From contig CAWEZH010000002.1 in NCBI GenBank assembly GCA_963813535.1, positions 704,001-768,000 on the forward strand: 64,000 bases of DNA. Direction: 5' to 3'. The notes below the pieces were generated by a model. That model was given only the letters and a program-made list of their open reading frames with translations. It was not told the DNA's origin and made no database searches. Numbering within the stretch: the first letter of the stretch is position 1; each line of letters begins with the position of its first letter. The stretch is from an uncultured Chloroflexia bacterium (GTDB lineage Bacteria; Chloroflexota; Limnocylindria; Limnocylindrales; CSP1-4). Below are positions 11,918 through 20,094 of this stretch, in pieces. Position numbers and translations under genes: made by a program.

Positions 11918-12430
11918 GTGCGAACCATCGACATCCTGGCGCTGTTCGACTTCACGTACTGGGCAGATCGGCAGCTGCTCGATGCCGCAGCGGCCGTGCC
12001 TGCCGACGATCTCGTCCGGCCCGCCTCGATCACATATCGGAACCTGCGAGACACGCTCGTTCACACCCTCGATGTGGAACTGACCTGGCGCCGACGCCTG
12101 CGCGGCGAGCCCAAGGAACTCTGGGACGTCTCGCTCGAGGTCGATGACTACCCGACGATCGGAGCGCTCCGTGAGCACTGGACGGCGGATGAAGCGGAGA
12201 TGCGAACGTGGCTTGGGTCGTTGGCCGACGAGGATCTTGTCGCCATCGTCGACGTCGGCAACAGCGATCGATTCCCGCTTTGGTACTACCTCGTCCACAT
12301 CGTCACGCACAGCGAACAGCAGCGCCGCGACGTCCAGATCCTGCTCAGGGACCTCGGCCACTCGGTGCCTGATCTGGAGTTCCTGTACTACGCGGACTCG
12401 GTCGAATCCGCTGCCGAGGACGCCCGATAG
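11918..12430 (+). CDS. DinB family protein
   Basis: LFDFTYWADRQLL, LRDTLVH, W.RRL.G, HIVTHS (third His position is Q). Confidence 0.8.
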   Translation: MRTIDILALFDFTYWADRQLLDAAAAVPADDLVRPASITYRNLRDTLVHTLDVELTWRRRLRGEPKELWDVSLEVDDYPTIGALREHWTADEAEMRTWLGSLADEDLVAIVDVGNSDRFPLWYYLVHIVTHSEQQRRDVQILLRDLGHSVPDLEFLYYADSVESAAEDAR

Positions 12431-12610: not shown

Positions 12611-13180
12611 TCACGTCCTGCGTGGCAGGCGGCTCACGAGCACCGCCGCGACCGTTCCCCCGATCAGCCCCAACGCGAGGTCACCGAGCGTGTCCGCGTA
12701 GGCGGTCGCAGCCTCGGGTGAGTCGGGGACGAATGCCACGTACTCGGCGAGCTCCCAGAGGACGGCGGTGCTTGCCGCCCAGCCGACACACAGCGCCGCG
12801 CGGGTCCACGGTCCCCAGGGTCCAGCCCGGAGCAACAGGCCGATCGCCGCCGTGTGGAGCGCCCAATTGACCAGGTGATTCGCGTCGTCCCACCACGCGA
12901 CCGTGTCGTACAGGTCGAGGGCGTTCCCGCCGACATCGATGAGGAACGGGAGACCCAGCAGGATGTCGGCGGCGACCGGGTATGGGAACGCCCGCGGCCG
13001 GCCGAGCACCCACCATCCGACCGGCAGGATCACTAGCGCGATGGGGTACACGAGCGCTCGCCCCGCGAACGCCTTGCCGGTGAACTGCGGCAGATCCGGG
13101 CTCAGGACCGCCCAGGCGAGGAGGACGACTGCCGCGACCTTGATCGCGACATCGACCGCGACGAGGCGGCGATCCGGCAC
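12611..13180 (-). CDS. Hypothetical multi-pass membrane protein (DUF2238-like motifs)
   Basis: Several TMs; LYD...WWD...H, LWE..EY, DTL.DL motifs. Confidence 0.7.
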   Translation of the reverse strand: MPDRRLVAVDVAIKVAAVVLLAWAVLSPDLPQFTGKAFAGRALVYPIALVILPVGWWVLGRPRAFPYPVAADILLGLPFLIDVGGNALDLYDTVAWWDDANHLVNWALHTAAIGLLLRAGPWGPWTRAALCVGWAASTAVLWELAEYVAFVPDSPEAATAYADTLGDLALGLIGGTVAAVLVSRLPRRT

Positions 13181-15370: not shown

Positions 15371-15447
15371 TGGTGGGCGACACTGGACTCGAACCAGTGA
15401 CCTCTTGCATGTCAAGCAAGTGCTCTAACCAGCTGAGCTAGCCGCCC
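15371..15447 (-). tRNA. tRNA-Val(GAC)
   Basis: Cloverleaf GGGCGGC...CTTGC TT GAC AT GCAAG...GGTTCGAGTCC...CCA. Confidence 0.97.
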
Positions 15448-15567
15448 GGATCACGCGGGGATCACCCTGATGACTGCACAGGAGCTCACCCGTCGCGGCC
15501 GTCAATCTAGCAGAGGCACCCGGACTCGTCACGCCTGTCGACCTGGGCGACTCCTCGCGCCCACCGA

Positions 15568-17157
15568 ATGATGCGCGGCCTCGCGTTGCGCCATCTCGCC
15601 GTAGCATACGGGGATGTTCAACGGAGATCGCCCCGGGCCGCACTCCTGACACGGATCCCGCTACACCCGCTCCTGTTCGCCGCGTATGCGGTCCTGTTCC
15701 TCTATTCCGCGAACCTTGCCCTGGTGCTGCCCATCGATGCGCTCGCGCCGCTGGCACGCGCCGTCATCGCTGCCGCCATCCTGACCGCGGTGCTCGCGCT
15801 CGTGCTCCGCGACATCCGCAAAGGGGCGATCGTGGCGTCGGCGATCGTGATCGCGTATTTCGGGTTCGGGCACGTCGCGGGGTTTCTCACCGGTCTCGGT
15901 CTCGGCGACGTGGCCCAGCTCGGAGTGTGGGCCGCGGTCGTCGTCGTGACGTTCGTCCTCGCCGTGCGCGGGTCAGCGAGAGTGCCGCAGGCGACTGCTG
16001 GCCTCAACGTCGTCTCCATCGTCCTGGTCGTGATCGCCGCCGCGACGATCCTGCCGTACGAGGTCACGCGGGCAGGTCAGGAGCCGGTCTCGCACGCGGC
16101 CCCCGTCCTGGCCGGATCCGACGCCGCGCCCGGGCGTGACATCTACTTCCTGATCTTCGACCGATACGGCTCGGCCGACGCGATCGAGCGCCGCTTCGAC
16201 ATCACCGACAACGAGATGTACGGCTGGCTCGAGGAGCGCGGGTTCCAGGTCCCGTCGAACAGCCACGCGAACTATCGGGCAACGGACTTCTCCCTGGCCG
16301 CGACCCTCAACATGCAGTACCTCGACAACCTGACGCGCGACATCGGCCGCACATCGGATGACCGGACGCCGGCACAGGACATGATCCGGGAGCACGAGGT
16401 CGGCCGCTTCCTGAAGTCGGAGGGATACCGGTACTACCAGATCGGGTCATGGTTCGGCCCCACCCGCTCCGTCACGATCGCCGATGAGAACCTCGCGTAC
16501 GGCGTCGCCAGCGAGTTCGAGACGGTCCTGAACGACCTGACGATCATGCCGGCGATCGACCGTGTCCGCGGCGTCGTGAGCGCCGAGCCGACGGAGCGCG
16601 ACCGCCATCGGGAAGGAAGCCTGTTCGGGTTCCGGCAGCTGCGCCGGGTCAGTACTGCCCCGGGTCCGAAATTCGTCTTCGCCCACATCCTCCTGCCGCA
16701 CGATCCGTACGTCTTCAAGGCTGATGGCTCCCCGCTGTCCGAAGCCGACGCGAAGGCCGCGCCGGAGGCTCGGCTCTATGCCGACCACCTGGAGTTCGCG
16801 AACACGCAGATCAAGGAGATCGTGGGGTACCTGCTTTCCGGTCCCGAACAAACCCGACCGATCGTGATCATCGAGGGCGACGAAGGGCCGTTGATGTGCC
16901 AGTCCCTCGACTGCGTGAAGAACACGCCCGAATACCTGCGGATCCGTCTGGGGAACCTTGTCGCGATGTACCTGCCGGGCGTGGAAGCGGTGCTGCCCGA
17001 CACGTTCACGTCCGTGAACACGTTCAGGGTGGTATTCCGCGAGTACTTCGGCGCCGACCTCGAGCCACTTCCCGACCGTAGTTTCACGTGGCCCGACAAC
17101 AAGCACATCTACGACTTCAAGGACGTGACCGAGCAGCTCATCGTTCCGGGTGAGTGA
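15568..17157 (+). CDS. Membrane-anchored sulfatase/alkaline-phosphatase superfamily hydrolase or transferase
   Basis: About 5 N-terminal TMs, then DIYFLIFDRY, NY..T, H.LLPHDPY, IIEGDEG; start codon uncertain. Confidence 0.75.
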   Translation: MMRGLALRHLAVAYGDVQRRSPRAALLTRIPLHPLLFAAYAVLFLYSANLALVLPIDALAPLARAVIAAAILTAVLALVLRDIRKGAIVASAIVIAYFGFGHVAGFLTGLGLGDVAQLGVWAAVVVVTFVLAVRGSARVPQATAGLNVVSIVLVVIAAATILPYEVTRAGQEPVSHAAPVLAGSDAAPGRDIYFLIFDRYGSADAIERRFDITDNEMYGWLEERGFQVPSNSHANYRATDFSLAATLNMQYLDNLTRDIGRTSDDRTPAQDMIREHEVGRFLKSEGYRYYQIGSWFGPTRSVTIADENLAYGVASEFETVLNDLTIMPAIDRVRGVVSAEPTERDRHREGSLFGFRQLRRVSTAPGPKFVFAHILLPHDPYVFKADGSPLSEADAKAAPEARLYADHLEFANTQIKEIVGYLLSGPEQTRPIVIIEGDEGPLMCQSLDCVKNTPEYLRIRLGNLVAMYLPGVEAVLPDTFTSVNTFRVVFREYFGADLEPLPDRSFTWPDNKHIYDFKDVTEQLIVPGE

Positions 17158-17222
17158 TGCGGATCGCCCGCCGGCGCTATCCTCGGTGGCCCGAGATCCC
17201 GACGTTGCCGAGGAGGGCACGC

Positions 17223-17405
17223 ATGATCCCGCTCCTTGCCTATATCGACCCGGGTTCAGGTAGCCTCATCATCCAGGCAGCGATCGCTGCCATCATCGCC
17301 ATCCCGATCTTCTTCCGCACACAGATCGCCCGGGCGATGCGGGCGATCCGGCGCTCGGACGACCACGAGCCGACGGGCGAGGATGACGCGGCCACCAGGC
17401 TCTGA
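17223..17405 (+). CDS. Small single-TM protein with AYIDPGSGS motif
   Basis: Strong SD AGGAGG; 60 aa, MIPLLAYIDPGSGSLIIQAAIAAII... Confidence 0.8.
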   Translation: MIPLLAYIDPGSGSLIIQAAIAAIIAIPIFFRTQIARAMRAIRRSDDHEPTGEDDAATRL

Positions 17406-18822
17406 CCTCCAGGATCCCGGCGCGCCGCACGCTGTCGGCATCGCCGACGGGCGCGACGCCGGGTCATTCCGCGATCCGAGCGGATTCGTCTTCTGGCGTG
17501 ATGGCCAGCCGTACCGCCAGATCCAACGAACGTTCGCGACCGAGTGGGACGGGTTCGAGGCGAGCCCGCTCAAGCGCCGCCTCCTCGACCAGCGACGACT
17601 GATCCCGTACGAGCCGGTCGGGCTCGACTTCGCGACCACGTCCGGCGCCCACGCGGTCATTCGACCGGAGCGGATCGAGTTCCTCAGCTATCCCTACGAG
17701 TGGACGTTCGGCGAGCTACGCGAGTCGGCGCTGCTGACGCTCGACATCCAGCTCGAAGCGATCGGCGCCGGGTGGACCCTCAAGGACGCGTCGGCCTTCA
17801 ACATCCAGTTCCACGACGGCCGCCCGATCCACATCGATTCGTCGTCGTTCGAGCCCCTCGAGGAGGGCGCGCCGTGGGTCGCCTACCGCCAGTTCTGCGA
17901 GCAGTTCCTGGCGCCGCTGGCGCTGGTTGGACGGCGCGACGTCCGGCTTTCCGATCTCCTCAGCGTCGAACCTGACGGGATCGCGCTCGACCTGGCAAGC
18001 CGGCTGCTGCCGCGGCGGACATGGTTCGACTTCGGCCTCCTTTCCCACGTGCACCTCCATGCCAGAGCCCAGCTCCGTCACGCGGGAGGAGACGACGATG
18101 GACGTGCGGCGCGGCGCACCCGCATCCCGCGGGCCCGCCTGGAAGGGGTGATCCGGAGTCTGCGCTCGACCGTCGCTGCGCTCGACTGGCGCGCAGGCGG
18201 CACGGAATGGGCTGACTACGCCGAGCACACGAGCTACGGCGAGCGGGCGGCGGCGGACAAGGACCGACTTGTCGACAGGTTCGTGCGCGAGCTGCCGGGA
18301 CGGCGCGTGTGGGACCTCGGCGCAAACACCGGTCGCTTCAGCCGGATCGCGGCCGAGGCGGGCAAGCGAGTCGTCGCCCTCGACATCGATCCGGCCGCTG
18401 CCGAGCGACACTTTCGCGCCGTCCGCGAGGCCGGGCGGACCGACATCCTGCCGCTCGTCGTCGACATCGCCAACCCGACCCCGGCGCTCGGCTGGGCCGG
18501 GCGCGAGCGGCGCTCGCTCCTGGAGCGGGCAGATGCAGATGCGATCCTCGCGCTCGCCCTGGTCCACCACCTCGCGATCACCCGGAACGTGCCGCTGCCG
18601 ATGCTTCTCGACCTGTTCGCGGAGCTTGCCCCGTGGGCGCTCGTCGAGTTCGTGCCCAAGGACGACCCGATGGTCCGGCGGCTCCTCGCCACGCGACGGG
18701 ACGTCTTCGCCGACTACGACCTGGACAGCTTCCGCGCGGCTGCGGGGATTCGCTTCGAGATCGTCCGCGAGGAGCGGATCGCTGACAGCACGCGGGTGCT
18801 CTTCCTCCTGCACCGACGCTGA
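17383..18822 (+). CDS. NoeA-like protein: kinase-like N-terminal region plus class I SAM methyltransferase
   Basis: SFRDPSGFVF, SYPYEW, LKDASAFNIQF..IHID, WDLGANTG, LALALVHHL. Confidence 0.8.
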   Translation: MTRPPGSDLQDPGAPHAVGIADGRDAGSFRDPSGFVFWRDGQPYRQIQRTFATEWDGFEASPLKRRLLDQRRLIPYEPVGLDFATTSGAHAVIRPERIEFLSYPYEWTFGELRESALLTLDIQLEAIGAGWTLKDASAFNIQFHDGRPIHIDSSSFEPLEEGAPWVAYRQFCEQFLAPLALVGRRDVRLSDLLSVEPDGIALDLASRLLPRRTWFDFGLLSHVHLHARAQLRHAGGDDDGRAARRTRIPRARLEGVIRSLRSTVAALDWRAGGTEWADYAEHTSYGERAAADKDRLVDRFVRELPGRRVWDLGANTGRFSRIAAEAGKRVVALDIDPAAAERHFRAVREAGRTDILPLVVDIANPTPALGWAGRERRSLLERADADAILALALVHHLAITRNVPLPMLLDLFAELAPWALVEFVPKDDPMVRRLLATRRDVFADYDLDSFRAAAGIRFEIVREERIADSTRVLFLLHRR

Positions 18823-18844
18823 CGGAGGCGACAACGTCCGGGGC

Positions 18845-19010
18845 ATAACAAGGCCCACGACGGATACCGCCGTGGGCTTCGTTACGGGCGACCGAAGCCG
18901 CCCGCGTCGCCGGTCCCTCGAAGGTTCGTGGCCGCCGACCGGTGGCTCACGGATGTTCCACGTCCGTGCCGAATCGGATGCCCCAGCAGTCGAGTCGCCA
19001 GCGGCCCGGG
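18845..19010 (-). ncRNA. Candidate structured ncRNA (rod with central bubble, 3' hairpins)
   Basis: TGnTAGGAT -10 at 19012-19017; end-to-end pairing; TTCG-loop hairpin; terminator-like hairpin at 18850-18879. Confidence 0.45.
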
Positions 19011-19072
19011 AATCCTACCAGAGGGTGCGCCAGAGGGACGAACCGAGGGCTGCCCTCCGCCCGATCGTCCGG

Positions 19073-19207
19073 TCAGTAGGCGGGGGCGACCGCAGAGGGG
19101 GCGGCAGACGGAGCCGGGGCGCCGCTCGAACCGCCACCGGACGGCGAGCACGCGCCGAGTGCGCCGGCGAGCACCAGGATCAGCGCAACGATCGATCGAC
19201 GGACCAC
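19073..19207 (-). CDS. 44-aa lipoprotein with Ser/Pro/Ala/Gly tail
   Basis: SD AAGGAGG then GTG; signal peptide with lipobox LGAC. Confidence 0.7.
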   Translation of the reverse strand: MVRRSIVALILVLAGALGACSPSGGGSSGAPAPSAAPSAVAPAY

Positions 19208-19281
19208 GCGAGACCTCCTTCTCACTCCTGCCATGGGATTCGGCGGACCCCTGCCGACCGGTTTCCCGTGATGATGGCCCC

Positions 19282-20094
19282 ATGGAGGGCTACGAGTTGA
19301 TCGATGCCGGAGCCGGTCGCCGTCTCGAACGGTTCGGTGCGCACGTGGTCGACCGTCCGCATCCGGGTGCCGACGACCATCGGCGCGCACCCGCGCGTTG
19401 GCAAGACGCGGATCTTGCGTTCGACAGAGACACGGGCTGGAGCGGCGACGGTCTGGCGACGGCCCGGTCTGGCTGGGATGTGGACCTCGAGGGTCTCGGA
19501 TTGGAGTTGCGCCCGACCGAGACCGGCCAGGTCGGCGTGTTCCCAGAGCACGCGGTCACGTTGCCATGGCTCCGCGACCGCATCGACGCGGCACCAGAGC
19601 GGCCCGACGTCCTCAACCTCTTCGCGTTCACCGGCCTCGCCACCCTCGCGCTCGCCCGAGCCGGTTCAGCCGTCGTCCATGTCGATGCGGCTCGGCCCGC
19701 CGTCGAGTGGGCACGCCGGCACGCGGCGAGGAACGGCCTCGAGGACCGACCGATCCGCTGGCTCGTCGATGACGCACGAGCGTTCGTCGCCCGAGAGGTC
19801 CGTCGCGGTCGCCGCTATCACGGCGTCGTGCTCGACCCACCGACATACGGGCACGGGCCGTCCGGCAAGGCGTGGCGGCTGTCGCGTGACCTCCAGCCGT
19901 TGCTGGACGACGTCCGTCGCCTGCTGGTGCCGGGCGCGTTCATCCTGCTGACCGCTCACGCGGCCGATCTCGACCCGGGTCGACTGGGCGGCTACCTGGG
20001 CGAAGCGGCGGAGGTCGGCGACCTGGTCATCACGGCGACATCGGGAGCGACCCTGCGGCTCGGTGCCTACGCCCGCCTGGGCCGCGCATCATGA
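19282..20094 (+). CDS. Class I SAM-dependent methyltransferase (RlmI/RlmK-like)
   Basis: YELID.G..RRLERFG, GVFPE, VLNLFAFTG, HVDA, LDPPTYG. Confidence 0.85.
   Translation: MEGYELIDAGAGRRLERFGAHVVDRPHPGADDHRRAPARWQDADLAFDRDTGWSGDGLATARSGWDVDLEGLGLELRPTETGQVGVFPEHAVTLPWLRDRIDAAPERPDVLNLFAFTGLATLALARAGSAVVHVDAARPAVEWARRHAARNGLEDRPIRWLVDDARAFVAREVRRGRRYHGVVLDPPTYGHGPSGKAWRLSRDLQPLLDDVRRLLVPGAFILLTAHAADLDPGRLGGYLGEAAEVGDLVITATSGATLRLGAYARLGRAS

What the first reader, a model, noticed from the sequence alone, without database searches (positions are those of the whole stretch)
15568..18822. Three-gene cassette: membrane sulfatase-like transferase + YIDPGSGS mini-protein + kinase/methyltransferase
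Seen: three co-directional genes, the last two overlapping. The NoeA-like protein has LKDASAFN followed ~10 residues later by IHID, the spacing of a protein-kinase-fold catalytic loop (DxxxxN) and DFG-equivalent, fused to a SAM methyltransferase (DLGANTG). The upstream enzyme has LtaS/EptA-like topology (TMs plus an alkaline-phosphatase-superfamily domain, candidate Thr nucleophile, GDEG instead of SDHG). Known: WbdD uses kinase plus methyltransferase to cap O-antigen with methyl-phosphate. Inference: an uncharacterised envelope-modification pathway that makes and transfers a (methyl)phosphate substituent, with the mini-protein as adaptor, carrier or substrate.
Basis: partly seen in the sequence, partly recalled or inferred. 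Interest (0 to 1): 0.72.

Follow-up and report, generated by a model that had tools for sequence, protein, structure and literature searches.

The report
NoeA/NoeB-type kinase-methyltransferase membrane gene trio
This is a real three-gene unit (membrane phosphotransferase-like enzyme, 60-residue membrane mini-protein, kinase-fold/methyltransferase fusion) belonging to a widespread module first met as the Sinorhizobium nodulation genes noeA/noeB and described by bioinformatics in 2022, whose chemistry is still unknown.

Summary
Three co-directional genes lie at 15568-18822, and the last two overlap by 23 nt.

- **C (479 aa)** is a full-length homologue of Sinorhizobium NoeA. Its N-domain folds as a protein-kinase-like domain, with D135, N140, D152 and R45 invariant in 95 diverse homologues. 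It is fused to a class I SAM methyltransferase.
- **A (529 aa)** has five predicted membrane helices and an outward alkaline-phosphatase-superfamily domain. T239 is invariant, there is no sulfatase signature, and A is related to NoeB.
- **B (60 aa)** has an invariant N-terminal Y-x-D-P-G-x-G-S-x3-Q motif, a 17-residue hydrophobic helix and a basic tail.

B sits directly upstream of C in 72 of 80 loci from many phyla. In a 151-genome phylum sample all 11 genomes with C also had A and B.

The trio, including the kinase fold, is already in print (PMC9758233) and is present in the S. meliloti nodL-noeA-noeB operon. It is therefore a new member of a known but unsolved kind.

New here:
- Many B homologues carry a signal-peptide-like leader ending A-x-A just before the motif.
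- A complex prediction (0.70, best control 0.00) docks B's motif into C's kinase cleft.
- The cassette occupies a variable slot beside tRNA-Val.

The parts
15568..17157 (+). Gene A: 529-aa polytopic membrane protein of the NoeB-like alkaline-phosphatase superfamily. It has five predicted TM helices (about 30-162) and an outward catalytic domain (163-529).
   Evidence: ORF. Hydropathy and positive-inside pattern. Pfam Sulfatase scores 18.8 bits, below the cut-off of 25. Family profile against solved sulfatases, best 6e-7. hhalign to S. meliloti NoeB gives prob 98.4, E 1e-14. Invariant D198, T239, D438; E439 stands where 22 of 32 relatives have His.
17210..17216 (+). Shine-Dalgarno-like GAGGAGG, 6 nt before the ATG of gene B.
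   Evidence: Read directly from the sequence.
17223..17405 (+). Gene B: 60-aa single-pass mini-protein. It has an N-terminal motif A-Y-I-D-P-G-S-G-S-L-I-I-Q, a hydrophobic helix and an Arg-rich tail.
   Evidence: No Pfam or NCBIfam family. Atlas neighbours are unnamed clusters.
17383..18822 (+). Gene C: 479-aa NoeA homologue. Residues about 22-235 form a protein-kinase-like domain (R45, D135, N140, D152). Residues about 250-479 form a class I SAM methyltransferase (DLGANTG 311-317).
18853..18877 (.). GC-rich perfect hairpin (11 pairs), 31 nt after the stop of C. It is the likely end of the transcription unit.
   Evidence: scored there on the minus strand; the palindrome also reads on +. Sequence. 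Function not tested.
15371..15447 (-). tRNA-Val(GAC). It is the left border of the variable slot that holds the cassette.
   Evidence: Synteny with relatives.

Best explanation
The cassette is a complete copy of the NoeA/NoeB-type module. It is a self-contained, horizontally mobile, three-part machine that works across the cytoplasmic membrane.

- **C** is cytoplasmic (no signal peptide or TM). It couples an atypical ATP-dependent kinase-fold domain to a SAM methyltransferase.
- **A** is a five-helix membrane protein. Its EptA/LtaS-like alkaline-phosphatase-superfamily domain faces outward and uses Thr239 as nucleophile to move a phospho-substituent.
- **B** is a single-pass protein that is an obligate partner of C. 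I read it as the subunit that couples the cytoplasmic enzyme to the membrane and to A.

The likely output is a phosphate-containing (possibly methylated) decoration on an envelope or secreted lipid or glycan.

Shown here: family membership, folds, conserved residues, gene linkage and patchy distribution.

Inferred: the topology of A and B (hydropathy, charge, leader peptides in homologues), B-C binding (prediction only), and all of the chemistry, substrate and acceptor.
For: **Membership**
- C matches S. meliloti noeA at 36.7% identity over residues 23-478, E 9e-63.
- The S. meliloti operon also holds a 71-aa B homologue overlapping noeA by 23 nt, and NoeB. hhalign gives prob 98.95 for B and 98.4 for NoeB.

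**Fold**
- The N-domain model has pLDDT 95.7.
- All 50 listed Foldseek rows are kinases or pseudokinases, best E 2.3e-5, including RioK1 and WaaP.
- All 50 VIA rows are kinase-fold proteins, best Rio2 1tqi with Z 9.6, rmsd 3.9, 147 aligned.
- The C-terminal half matches class I methyltransferases.

**Residues**
- D31, R45, D135, N140 and D152 are invariant in 95 homologues.

**Linkage**
- In 80 loci from many phyla, B lies directly upstream of C in 72, elsewhere in the cassette in 5, and is not found in 3. Two of those 3 are cut by a contig end.
- A lies within 6 kb in 53-54 of the 80 loci.
- I checked 10 genomes with no A near B-C. Nine have an A-family match elsewhere at E <= 1e-39: 6 as full open frames, 3 in pieces or with stops.
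- In 151 genomes of the phylum, C occurs in 11, and all 11 also have A and B. Of the 140 without C, 2 have A-like and 3 have B-like matches.

**B-C binding**
- Complex prediction scores 0.70 with best control 0.00. That mark was reached by 116 of 157 solved complexes and 2 of 215 mismatched pairs.
- The runs agree in at least 85% of contacts, and partner pLDDT is 65-68.

**Topology**
- A has an N-terminus with 6 K/R, and its loops alternate in charge.
- B has a median of 4 K/R in the 15 residues after the helix and none acidic.

**Precedent for the architecture**
- BcsE is a cytosolic protein, BcsF is a short membrane polypeptide that recruits it, and BcsG is a membrane protein that covalently modifies secreted cellulose in the periplasm (PMC7439463, passages read).
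Against: - No substrate, donor or acceptor can be named.
- The window has no glycan-synthesis genes beside the cassette. Its neighbours are thrS, tRNA-Val and RNA methyltransferases.
- In other loci, surface-glycan genes recur only weakly: GT2 in 9, cytidylyltransferase in 8 and capsule synthesis in 6 of 80.
- The predicted B-C interface uses B residues 4 and 6-26, that is the motif and the first part of the helix. It does not use the basic tail. By charge and by the leader peptides of homologues, the motif should lie outside the cell, where C cannot be. So either the contact happens before B inserts, or the prediction is an artefact of a hydrophobic helix. It cannot be a simple anchor contact.
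- B-C covariation gave no signal. Six of the 40 top pairs fall in the interface against 3.3 expected, from only 66 pairs.
- A's direct similarity to solved EptA-like proteins is weak (4kav, E 0.04).
- In this copy Glu replaces the His of the D-H metal motif, as in 10 of 32 relatives.
- A is absent from the 6-kb flanks in 26-27 of 80 loci.
Confidence: 0.6

Rival explanations
1. B is not an adaptor but the substrate, or a carrier. C binds the conserved N-terminal motif of newly made B in the cytoplasm, phosphorylates it (Ser14, Ser12 or Tyr7), and methylates the phosphate into a diester. B then inserts N-out. A uses the phospho-diester on B's exposed stub as donor for an outside acceptor, or removes it.
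For: - The complex prediction places B residues 6-26 against the catalytic loop (134-135), D31-S33 and the P164-Q170 segment of C. Five of C's 18 invariant residues lie in that interface of about 37 residues, and all six invariant residues of B lie in it.
- Leader peptides ending A-x-A directly before the Tyr occur in homologues from several phyla, an archaeon and S. meliloti. Other homologues start M-Y-[LI]-D-P. Both place the motif at a free, outward N-terminus on the side of A's catalytic domain.
- Extra B copies sit next to extra A paralogues (G152, G126), and a B-A pair exists without C (G086).
- None of the 270 C-family proteins held (120, 150) carries the motif. B is therefore almost never fused to C, although a fusion would be easy.
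- EptA-type enzymes use phosphodiester donors (recalled knowledge).
Against: - Ser14 is never Thr. It sits where a helix N-cap would be, so it may be structural.
- Position 12 is A, F, V or W in a few homologues.
- No protein is known to carry a phosphoryl group across a membrane in this way.
- The prediction ignores the membrane and may simply bury a hydrophobic helix.
- Covariation was inconclusive.
- A few apparent B-C and B-A fusions exist, though most look like frameshifts.
Confidence: 0.2
2. A is a hydrolase (a phosphatase, phosphodiesterase or sulfatase that removes a group) rather than a transferase. The trio then recycles or remodels a phospho-compound instead of decorating the envelope.
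For: - The only Pfam match is Sulfatase.
- The best solved-structure matches of the family profile are sulfatases, 6s21 at 6e-7.
- The alkaline-phosphatase superfamily contains many hydrolases (recalled).
- His-to-Glu at the metal site in this copy.
Against: - A contains no C/S-x-P/A-x-R formylglycine signature anywhere.
- The invariant nucleophile candidate is Thr, as in EptA/LtaS-type transferases (recalled).
- The five-TM plus outward-domain layout is that of the transferases.
- For the Legionella family member, HHpred gives EptA 5FGN at 3.2e-27 in the paper's supplement.
Confidence: 0.1
3. C is a WbdD-type terminator that caps an O-antigen-like polymer with methyl-phosphate in the cytoplasm. 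A and B are accessory.
For: - Kinase plus methyltransferase in one chain.
- The WbdD methyltransferase domain is among the best Foldseek matches to whole C (4azs, E 4.9e-8, 217 columns).
Against: - Domain order here is kinase then methyltransferase, and the protein ends with the methyltransferase and has no coiled coil. The paper describes WbdD as having kinase, methyltransferase and coiled-coil domains. It calls WbdD and its Lcin_0519 kinase-methyltransferase family clearly different, remotely related families, and it treats NoeA/Lani_1194 as a further separate family (PMC9758233).
- No ABC transporter or glycosyltransferase lies next to the cassette in this window.
- The Foldseek match covers only the generic Rossmann domain.
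Confidence: 0.05
4. The three genes are unrelated neighbours.
For: In this window nothing else links them beyond adjacency. A is separated from B by 65 nt.
Against: Adjacency and co-occurrence hold across phyla and in a 151-genome sample. The same trio occurs in S. meliloti. The whole cassette is absent as a unit from the same slot in relatives.
Confidence: 0.02

Closest known systems
Lani_1194/NoeA kinase-methyltransferase family with its neighbours Lani_1193 and Lani_1195/NoeB (Sci Rep 2022, PMC9758233; passages and supplement file 6 read)
   Same: The paper describes an atypical kinase domain (Arg in place of the beta3 Lys, conserved D/N/D) fused to a class I SAM methyltransferase. Its neighbours are a small hypothetical protein of about 65 aa, present in 65% of 816 neighbourhoods, and an alkaline-phosphatase-fold membrane protein, present in 38%. 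All of these features were re-found here independently.
   Different: - Gene order here is A-B-C, whereas B-C-A is commonest (33 of 80 loci have A directly downstream).
- The host is a high-GC Chloroflexota-like genome.
- This copy of A has D-E instead of D-H.
- The paper does not describe the mini-protein's motif, leader or topology. I did not fetch the Legionella sequences.
Sinorhizobium meliloti nodL-noeA-noeB host-range operon (Ardourel 1995, known to me only through citations)
   Same: C is a full-length NoeA homologue. The operon also holds a B homologue overlapping noeA by 23 nt, and NoeB, which is related to A.
   Different: NoeB is 460 aa and has fewer N-terminal helices. The rhizobial copy sits behind a nod box next to nodL. 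The window has no symbiosis context.
EptA/MCR-1, LtaS and BcsG: membrane phospho-group transferases of the alkaline-phosphatase superfamily
   Same: Several N-terminal membrane helices are followed by an outward catalytic domain. There is an invariant Thr after an acidic metal ligand, a P-H motif and a D-H/E motif. The residue equivalences are recalled, not superposed.
   Different: Sequence similarity is very weak (4kav, E 0.04; no phmmer hit). Donor and acceptor are unknown. Glu replaces the His ligand in this copy.
BcsE-BcsF-BcsG of E. coli-type cellulose secretion
   Same: The architecture is the same: a cytosolic protein, a short membrane polypeptide that brings it to the membrane, and a membrane protein that modifies a secreted polymer in the periplasm, all in one operon (PMC7439463). 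That BcsG belongs to the alkaline-phosphatase superfamily is recalled, not from the passages I read.
   Different: No sequence relationship was tested or is claimed. BcsE is a c-di-GMP sensor, not an enzyme pair. Here the predicted contact uses the mini-protein's N-terminal motif.
WbdD (E. coli O9a O-antigen terminator)
   Same: Kinase-fold and SAM methyltransferase activities sit in one polypeptide. Its methyltransferase domain is among the top structural matches.
   Different: The domain order is opposite, C has no coiled coil, the kinase family differs, and the genomic context differs.
Small atypical kinases Rio1/Rio2, WaaP, YihE, Bud32
   Same: They are the best structural neighbours of the N-domain.
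   Different: Identity is 9-17%, TM-scores are 0.3-0.5 and Z is at most 9.6. This shows a shared fold only.

Membership tests
NoeA / Lani_1194 kinase-methyltransferase family | Full-length sequence homology to NoeA | tested here: met
   tblastn against S. meliloti pSymA noeA gives 36.7% identity over residues 23-478, E 9e-63. There are 1831 representative clusters at E <= 1e-30.
NoeA / Lani_1194 kinase-methyltransferase family | N-terminal protein-kinase-like fold | tested here: met
   The model has pLDDT 95.7. All 50 listed rows are kinase-fold proteins in both Foldseek (best E 2.3e-5) and VIA (best Z 9.6, rmsd 3.9, 147 aligned).
NoeA / Lani_1194 kinase-methyltransferase family | Conserved catalytic Asp, Asn and Asp, with Arg instead of the beta3 Lys | tested here: met
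   D135, N140, D152 and R45 are invariant in 95 sequences. Their assignment to PKA D166/N171/D184/K72 follows the paper.
NoeA / Lani_1194 kinase-methyltransferase family | C-terminal class I SAM methyltransferase | tested here: met
   Pfam Methyltransf_12, Methyltransf_23 and FtsJ match near their cut-offs. Foldseek of the whole model matches ChlM, NodS and the WbdD methyltransferase at E 5e-9 to 5e-7.
NoeA / Lani_1194 kinase-methyltransferase family | Conserved neighbours: a small protein and an alkaline-phosphatase-fold protein | tested here: met
Mini-protein family (S. meliloti 71-aa ORF; Lani_1193 by description) | A 50-80 aa protein next to noeA that shares the profile | tested here: met
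   hhalign of the 66-sequence profile against the S. meliloti ORF gives prob 98.95, E 1e-17. Identity with Lani_1193 itself was not tested because the sequence was not fetched.
NoeB / Lani_1195 alkaline-phosphatase-fold membrane proteins | Homology to NoeB | tested here: met
   hhalign of the A profile against S. meliloti NoeB gives prob 98.4, E 1e-14 over 280 columns. Pairwise BLASTP is only 9e-7.
EptA/LtaS-type phospho-group transferases | N-terminal TM bundle with an extracytoplasmic catalytic domain | tested here: met
   Five hydropathy peaks and an alternating positive-inside pattern. This is prediction only.
EptA/LtaS-type phospho-group transferases | Thr nucleophile and an acidic / Asp-His metal site | tested here: inconclusive
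   D198, T239 and D438 are invariant. Position 439 is His in 22 and Glu in 10 of 32 sequences, and Glu in this copy. Equivalence to the EptA/LtaS residues is recalled, not superposed, because no structure of A was predicted.
EptA/LtaS-type phospho-group transferases | Detectable sequence similarity to solved members | tested here: inconclusive
   The profile matches 4kav (YhbX/YhjW/YijP/YjdB family) at E 0.04. Sulfatases score better. The paper's supplement reports EptA 5FGN at 3.2e-27 for the Legionella member.
Formylglycine-dependent sulfatases | C/S-x-P/A-x-R signature at the nucleophile | tested here: not met
   No such pattern anywhere in A. Pfam Sulfatase scores 18.8 bits, below the cut-off of 25.
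WbdD | Kinase and methyltransferase domains followed by a C-terminal coiled coil (domain set from the paper; the methyltransferase-first order is recalled) | tested here: not met
   The model shows kinase (22-235) then methyltransferase (about 250-479), and the chain ends there with no coiled coil.
WbdD | O-antigen ABC-transporter and glycosyltransferase context | tested here: not met
   The neighbours are thrS, tRNA-Val and the RNA methyltransferase families Methyltrans_SAM and SpoU.
BcsF-like membrane adaptors | Sequence or structural homology to BcsF | not tested
   Only the architectural analogy is used.

The most novel reading that the evidence does not exclude
The mini-protein is a trans-membrane phosphoryl carrier. 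The NoeA-type enzyme captures newly made B in the cytoplasm, phosphorylates its invariant N-terminal Y-x-D-P-G-x-G-S stub, and methylates the phosphate to a diester. B then inserts with the stub outside, with its leader cleaved at A-x-A where one exists. The NoeB-type alkaline-phosphatase-superfamily enzyme then uses this protein-bound methyl-phosphodiester as donor to decorate an envelope or secreted glycan. This would be a way to export activated phosphate without a lipid or nucleotide carrier.
Probability: 0.12. Interest if true: 0.9.

Novelty: new member of a known kind. Interest (0 to 1): 0.5.

Why it matters
The function of noeA and noeB has been open since 1995. A passage read here states that their roles remain unknown. 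The family is very large, with 1831 clusters at 50% identity at E <= 1e-30. It spans many bacterial phyla and some archaea.

This copy adds little on its own. The comparison it prompted gives three concrete handles.

1. The tiny gene is the most faithful partner of NoeA, and it is also present, annotated only as hypothetical, in the classical S. meliloti operon.
2. Its invariant motif is predicted to sit at a free outward N-terminus, yet it is also predicted to dock in the kinase cleft. That contradiction can be settled by simple mass spectrometry and topology mapping.
3. The cassette behaves as a movable unit in a variable slot.

If the carrier reading were right, it would be a new way of moving activated phosphate across a membrane.

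Tried and rejected
- **Sequence search against solved structures.** C gave only marginal methyltransferase hits, best E 0.039. A gave none.
- **NCBIfam.** Nothing above any cut-off for A, B or C.
- **Foldseek with the whole C model.** It returned only methyltransferases, so the N-domain was folded and searched alone.
- **Fused forms of B.** The 'longer' search gave 9 hits.
  - Most look like frameshifted read-throughs with Arg/Pro-rich junk.
  - P0392 looks like a clean in-frame B-C fusion until a frameshift near its end.
  - P0394 looks like a B-A fusion.
  - Each is a single-member cluster, so I gave them no weight.
- **B-C covariation.** Mutual information with APC on 66 paired sequences put 6 of the 40 top pairs in the predicted interface, against 3.3 expected. 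No conclusion.
- **Further conserved neighbours.** The three largest ORF clusters were shadow frames over C. Real recurrent neighbours (GT2 in 9 loci, CTP_transf_3 in 8, ABC_tran in 7, Capsule_synth in 6 of 80) are too rare to define a pathway.
- **Protein atlas for B.** Only unnamed Chloroflexota clusters.
- **Literature search for the motif strings.** Eight papers hold one of them. The 4 listed are unrelated (linkers, epitopes).
- **Promoter scan.** No sigma-70-like site. This is uninformative in this phylum.
- **Earlier scan notes by sequence.** None.

Full report
**What is there**

The window is about 70% G+C. Three + strand ORFs fill 15568-18822.
- Gene A runs 15568-17157 (529 aa).
- Gene B most likely starts at ATG 17223, 6 nt after GAGGAGG (17210-17216), and ends at 17405 (60 aa).
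- Gene C most likely starts at ATG 17383 and ends at 18822 (479 aa). B and C therefore overlap by 23 nt.
- A perfect GC-rich hairpin lies at 18853-18877.
- Upstream, on the other strand, are tRNA-Val(GAC) at 15371-15447 and a 633-aa ORF that I read by eye as thrS.
- Downstream are two RNA-methyltransferase-like genes, Methyltrans_SAM and SpoU_methylase.
- The closest database relatives are labelled Candidatus Limnocylindrales or Chloroflexia.

**Gene C**

Pfam sees only a class I methyltransferase near its cut-offs. NCBIfam finds nothing above cut-off.

The family is huge. There are 5945 representative clusters at E <= 1e-3 and 1831 at E <= 1e-30.

In an alignment of 95 members (35-52% identical to C), the invariant residues include D31, R45, W107, D135, N140, D152, S155, W165, Y168 and Q170 in the N-terminal half. 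D311, G313, N315 and G317 are near-invariant in the methyltransferase motif.

AlphaFold2 gave a confident model, pLDDT 94.0 and pTM 0.93. Searched whole, it matched only methyltransferases: ChlM, the WbdD methyltransferase domain, NodS and MePCE.

The N-domain folded alone (residues 20-240, pLDDT 95.7) matched only protein-kinase-like folds.
- Foldseek found 44 matches at E <= 0.001, best 2.3e-5. All 50 listed rows were kinases or pseudokinases: RioK1, RNase L, PknG, PAK1, WaaP, AceK.
- VIA-align over 48,161 chains gave 60 with Z >= 8. All 50 listed were kinase-fold proteins, headed by Rio2 1tqi (Z 9.6, rmsd 3.9, 147 aligned), with YihE at 9.0.
- The scores are moderate. The tool warns that best Z of 7-8 is common, but the uniformity of the list and the invariant D-x4-N...D triad make the fold assignment safe.

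**This is already in print**

A full-text search for NoeA plus methyltransferase led to PMC9758233 (Sci Rep 2022). I read its passages and one supplementary table.
- It defines the Lani_1194/NoeA family as an atypical kinase (Arg for K72; D166, N171 and D184 conserved) fused to a class I methyltransferase.
- It compares a sister family with WbdD.
- It reports two conserved neighbours in 816 neighbourhoods. Lani_1193 (65%) is a hypothetical protein whose remote-homology alignments span about 65 residues. Lani_1195/NoeB (38%) has the alkaline-phosphatase fold, with HHpred EptA 5FGN at 3.2e-27.

C is a true NoeA homologue: 36.7% identity over 95% of its length to S. meliloti pSymA noeA.

In that plasmid an annotated 71-aa hypothetical gene lies between nodL and noeA and overlaps noeA by 23 nt, as here. 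Its product reads MPIIMSVVGFLILSIVPAHA-YLDPGTGS... and matches the B profile (prob 98.95). The ORF after noeA matches the A profile (prob 98.4).

**Gene A**

Hydropathy gives five helices between residues 30 and 162. The N-terminus has 6 K/R and the loops alternate in charge, which places residues 163-529 outside.

Direct evidence for the fold is weak but consistent.
- Pfam Sulfatase scores 18.8 bits, cut-off 25.
- A 32-sequence family profile hits solved sulfatases, best 6e-7, and an EptA-family protein 4kav at 0.04.
- There is no C/S-x-P/A-x-R sulfatase signature.

Y193, D198, T239, N248, P380 and D438 are invariant. H373 and H378 are nearly invariant.

Position 439 is His in 22 and Glu in 10 of 32 sequences, and the Glu forms come from several phyla.

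**Gene B**

B has no Pfam or NCBIfam family. It has 427 relatives of mostly 58-60 aa in the word-indexed search.

Across 66 sequences from many phyla, Y7, D9, P10, G13, S14 and Q18 are invariant.

The distance from the motif to the first Lys/Arg has a median of 17 residues (range 17-22). It is followed by a median of 4 K/R and no acidic residues in the next 15.

Taking the nearest start codon upstream of the motif:
- 27 of 66 have at most 7 residues before the Tyr, and several begin M-Y-[LI]-D-P.
- 20 of 66 have a hydrophobic extension of 13 or more residues. These typically end A-x-A immediately before the Tyr, for example ...LQPAHA-Y, ...TGPAQA-Y, and ...PQSVSA-Y in an archaeon.
- Position -1 is Ala in 41 of 66.

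I read the extensions as signal peptides. The motif would then be a free N-terminal stub on the outer face, with the basic tail inside. This is inference from sequence.

No paper in the library holds the motif in this context.

**Linkage**

A pattern scan of one genome per species found 596 relatives of C. The best 80 loci were kept. I searched their six-frame ORFs with jackhmmer.
- B is directly upstream of C on the same strand in 72 of 80 loci.
- B is elsewhere in the cassette in 5: after C in L014, L031 and L046, and in B-A-C order in L056 and L069.
- B is not found in 3. In L038 and L049, C starts at the contig edge. L045 truly lacks it nearby.
- An A-family gene lies within the 6-kb flanks in 53 loci (at least 150 aligned residues) or 54 (any hit). 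In 33 it is directly downstream on the same strand. Nine loci have two or more.
- I checked 10 genomes with no A near B-C. Nine have an A-family match elsewhere at E <= 1e-39: 6 as full open frames, 3 in pieces or with stop codons. One has only 1e-6.

In 151 genomes sampled across the window's phylum, C was found in 11, and all 11 also have A and B. Among the 140 without C:
- A-like matches occur in 2 (G033, a fragment; G086).
- B-like matches occur in 3 (G029, G086, G122).

The 11 genomes fall in three families, so they are not independent. The cross-phylum loci make the same point.

Further details:
- G086 has B next to A without C.
- G152 and G126 have extra B copies next to extra A paralogues.
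- A reaches 7 matches in one genome.
- The window's own genome has one copy of each.

The second refutation test (no co-occurrence) also fails to refute.

**Mobility**

The same-genus genome G134 and the same-family genomes G089 and G098 lack all three genes. They keep the flanks.
- In G134 the interval between tRNA-Val (100% identical) and the downstream methyltransferase genes holds GNAT (Acetyltransf_6) ORFs.
- In G089 the interval is about 1 kb and holds a PAP2 phosphatase gene.

The cassette therefore sits in a variable slot beside a tRNA gene.

**How B relates to C**

One complex prediction (C and B, each with its alignment) scored 0.70 in three runs, against 0.00 for the best of three controls.
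- That mark was reached by 116 of 157 solved complexes and 2 of 215 mismatched pairs.
- The runs share at least 85% of contacts, and partner pLDDT is 65-68.
- No like complex is solved, to my knowledge.

The confident interface uses B residues 4 and 6-26, that is the invariant motif and the first part of the helix. On C it uses residues 31-33, 134-135, 164-170, 172 and 221-259. This covers the catalytic loop, the segment in the position of a kinase substrate-binding loop (my reading of the fold), and two flanking helices.
- Five of C's 18 invariant residues (D31, D135, W165, Y168, Q170) lie in this interface of about 37 residues.
- All six invariant residues of B lie in it.

This supports binding but does not show it. 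It also conflicts with the topology above, because a cytoplasmic enzyme cannot reach an outward stub. Three resolutions are possible:
- C meets B before B inserts (the substrate or carrier reading).
- B's motif completes or regulates the kinase site in some arrangement I cannot see.
- The model merely buries a hydrophobic helix.

Covariation on 66 pairs could not decide. None of the 270 C-family proteins in hand carries the motif, so fusion is at least rare.

**Conclusion**

The structural interpretation is right but has been published. The module's chemistry remains unknown.

My best reading (0.6) is a three-part, membrane-spanning phospho-modification module in which B is the obligate partner of C and links it to A. 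The BcsE-BcsF-BcsG arrangement is the nearest worked-out architecture.

The boldest reading that the data allow is that B itself carries the (methyl)phosphate across the membrane (about 0.12).

Papers: for PMC9758233 I read passages and one supplementary table. For PMC9048898, bioRxiv 10.1101/2021.11.23.469708 and PMC7439463 I read passages only. Ardourel 1995 I did not see.

Noticed in passing
window 15448-19300 compared with L088 (G134) and L089 (G089): The interval between tRNA-Val and the downstream RNA-methyltransferase genes is a variable slot. It holds this cassette here, GNAT (Acetyltransf_6) ORFs in the same-genus genome, and a PAP2 phosphatase gene in a same-family genome. All three are envelope- or lipid-related cargo.
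   Followed up: partly
L084 3760-3975 (S. meliloti pSymA CP140936.1): The classical nodL-noeA-noeB operon contains a fourth, 71-aa gene, annotated only as hypothetical, that belongs to the mini-protein family and overlaps noeA by 23 nt. The passages I read name only nodL, noeA and noeB.
   Followed up: yes
G086 C1:1292733-1294479; G152 C40:51039-52737; G126 C1:1355492-1358310: Mini-protein genes also occur next to A-family paralogues without an adjacent C. In G086 no C is found in the genome, and the A match there holds a stop codon.
   Followed up: no
window 19073-19390, minus strand: An ORF ends in a lipoprotein-like signal (…RRSIVALILVLAGALGAC followed by a Ser/Gly/Ala/Pro-rich tail) between the cassette's hairpin and the next gene. 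It may be a small lipoprotein gene. I read this by eye and did not search it.
   Followed up: no
L019 5720-6050: In this locus the mini-protein gene is split over two reading frames, with the motif in one and the helix and tail in another. This is a frameshift or an assembly error.
   Followed up: no
window 11918-12430 (+) and 12611-13180 (-): A DinB-family gene (E 5e-15) and a membrane ORF with a weak DUF2238 match (17.3 bits, below cut-off) lie upstream of thrS.
   Followed up: no
P0394 and P0392 (metagenome proteins): Single-member clusters read as mini-protein fused to an A-like protein (P0394) and to the N-terminus of a C-like protein (P0392). If real, both fusions put the mini-protein's tail on the cytoplasmic side.
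   Followed up: partly
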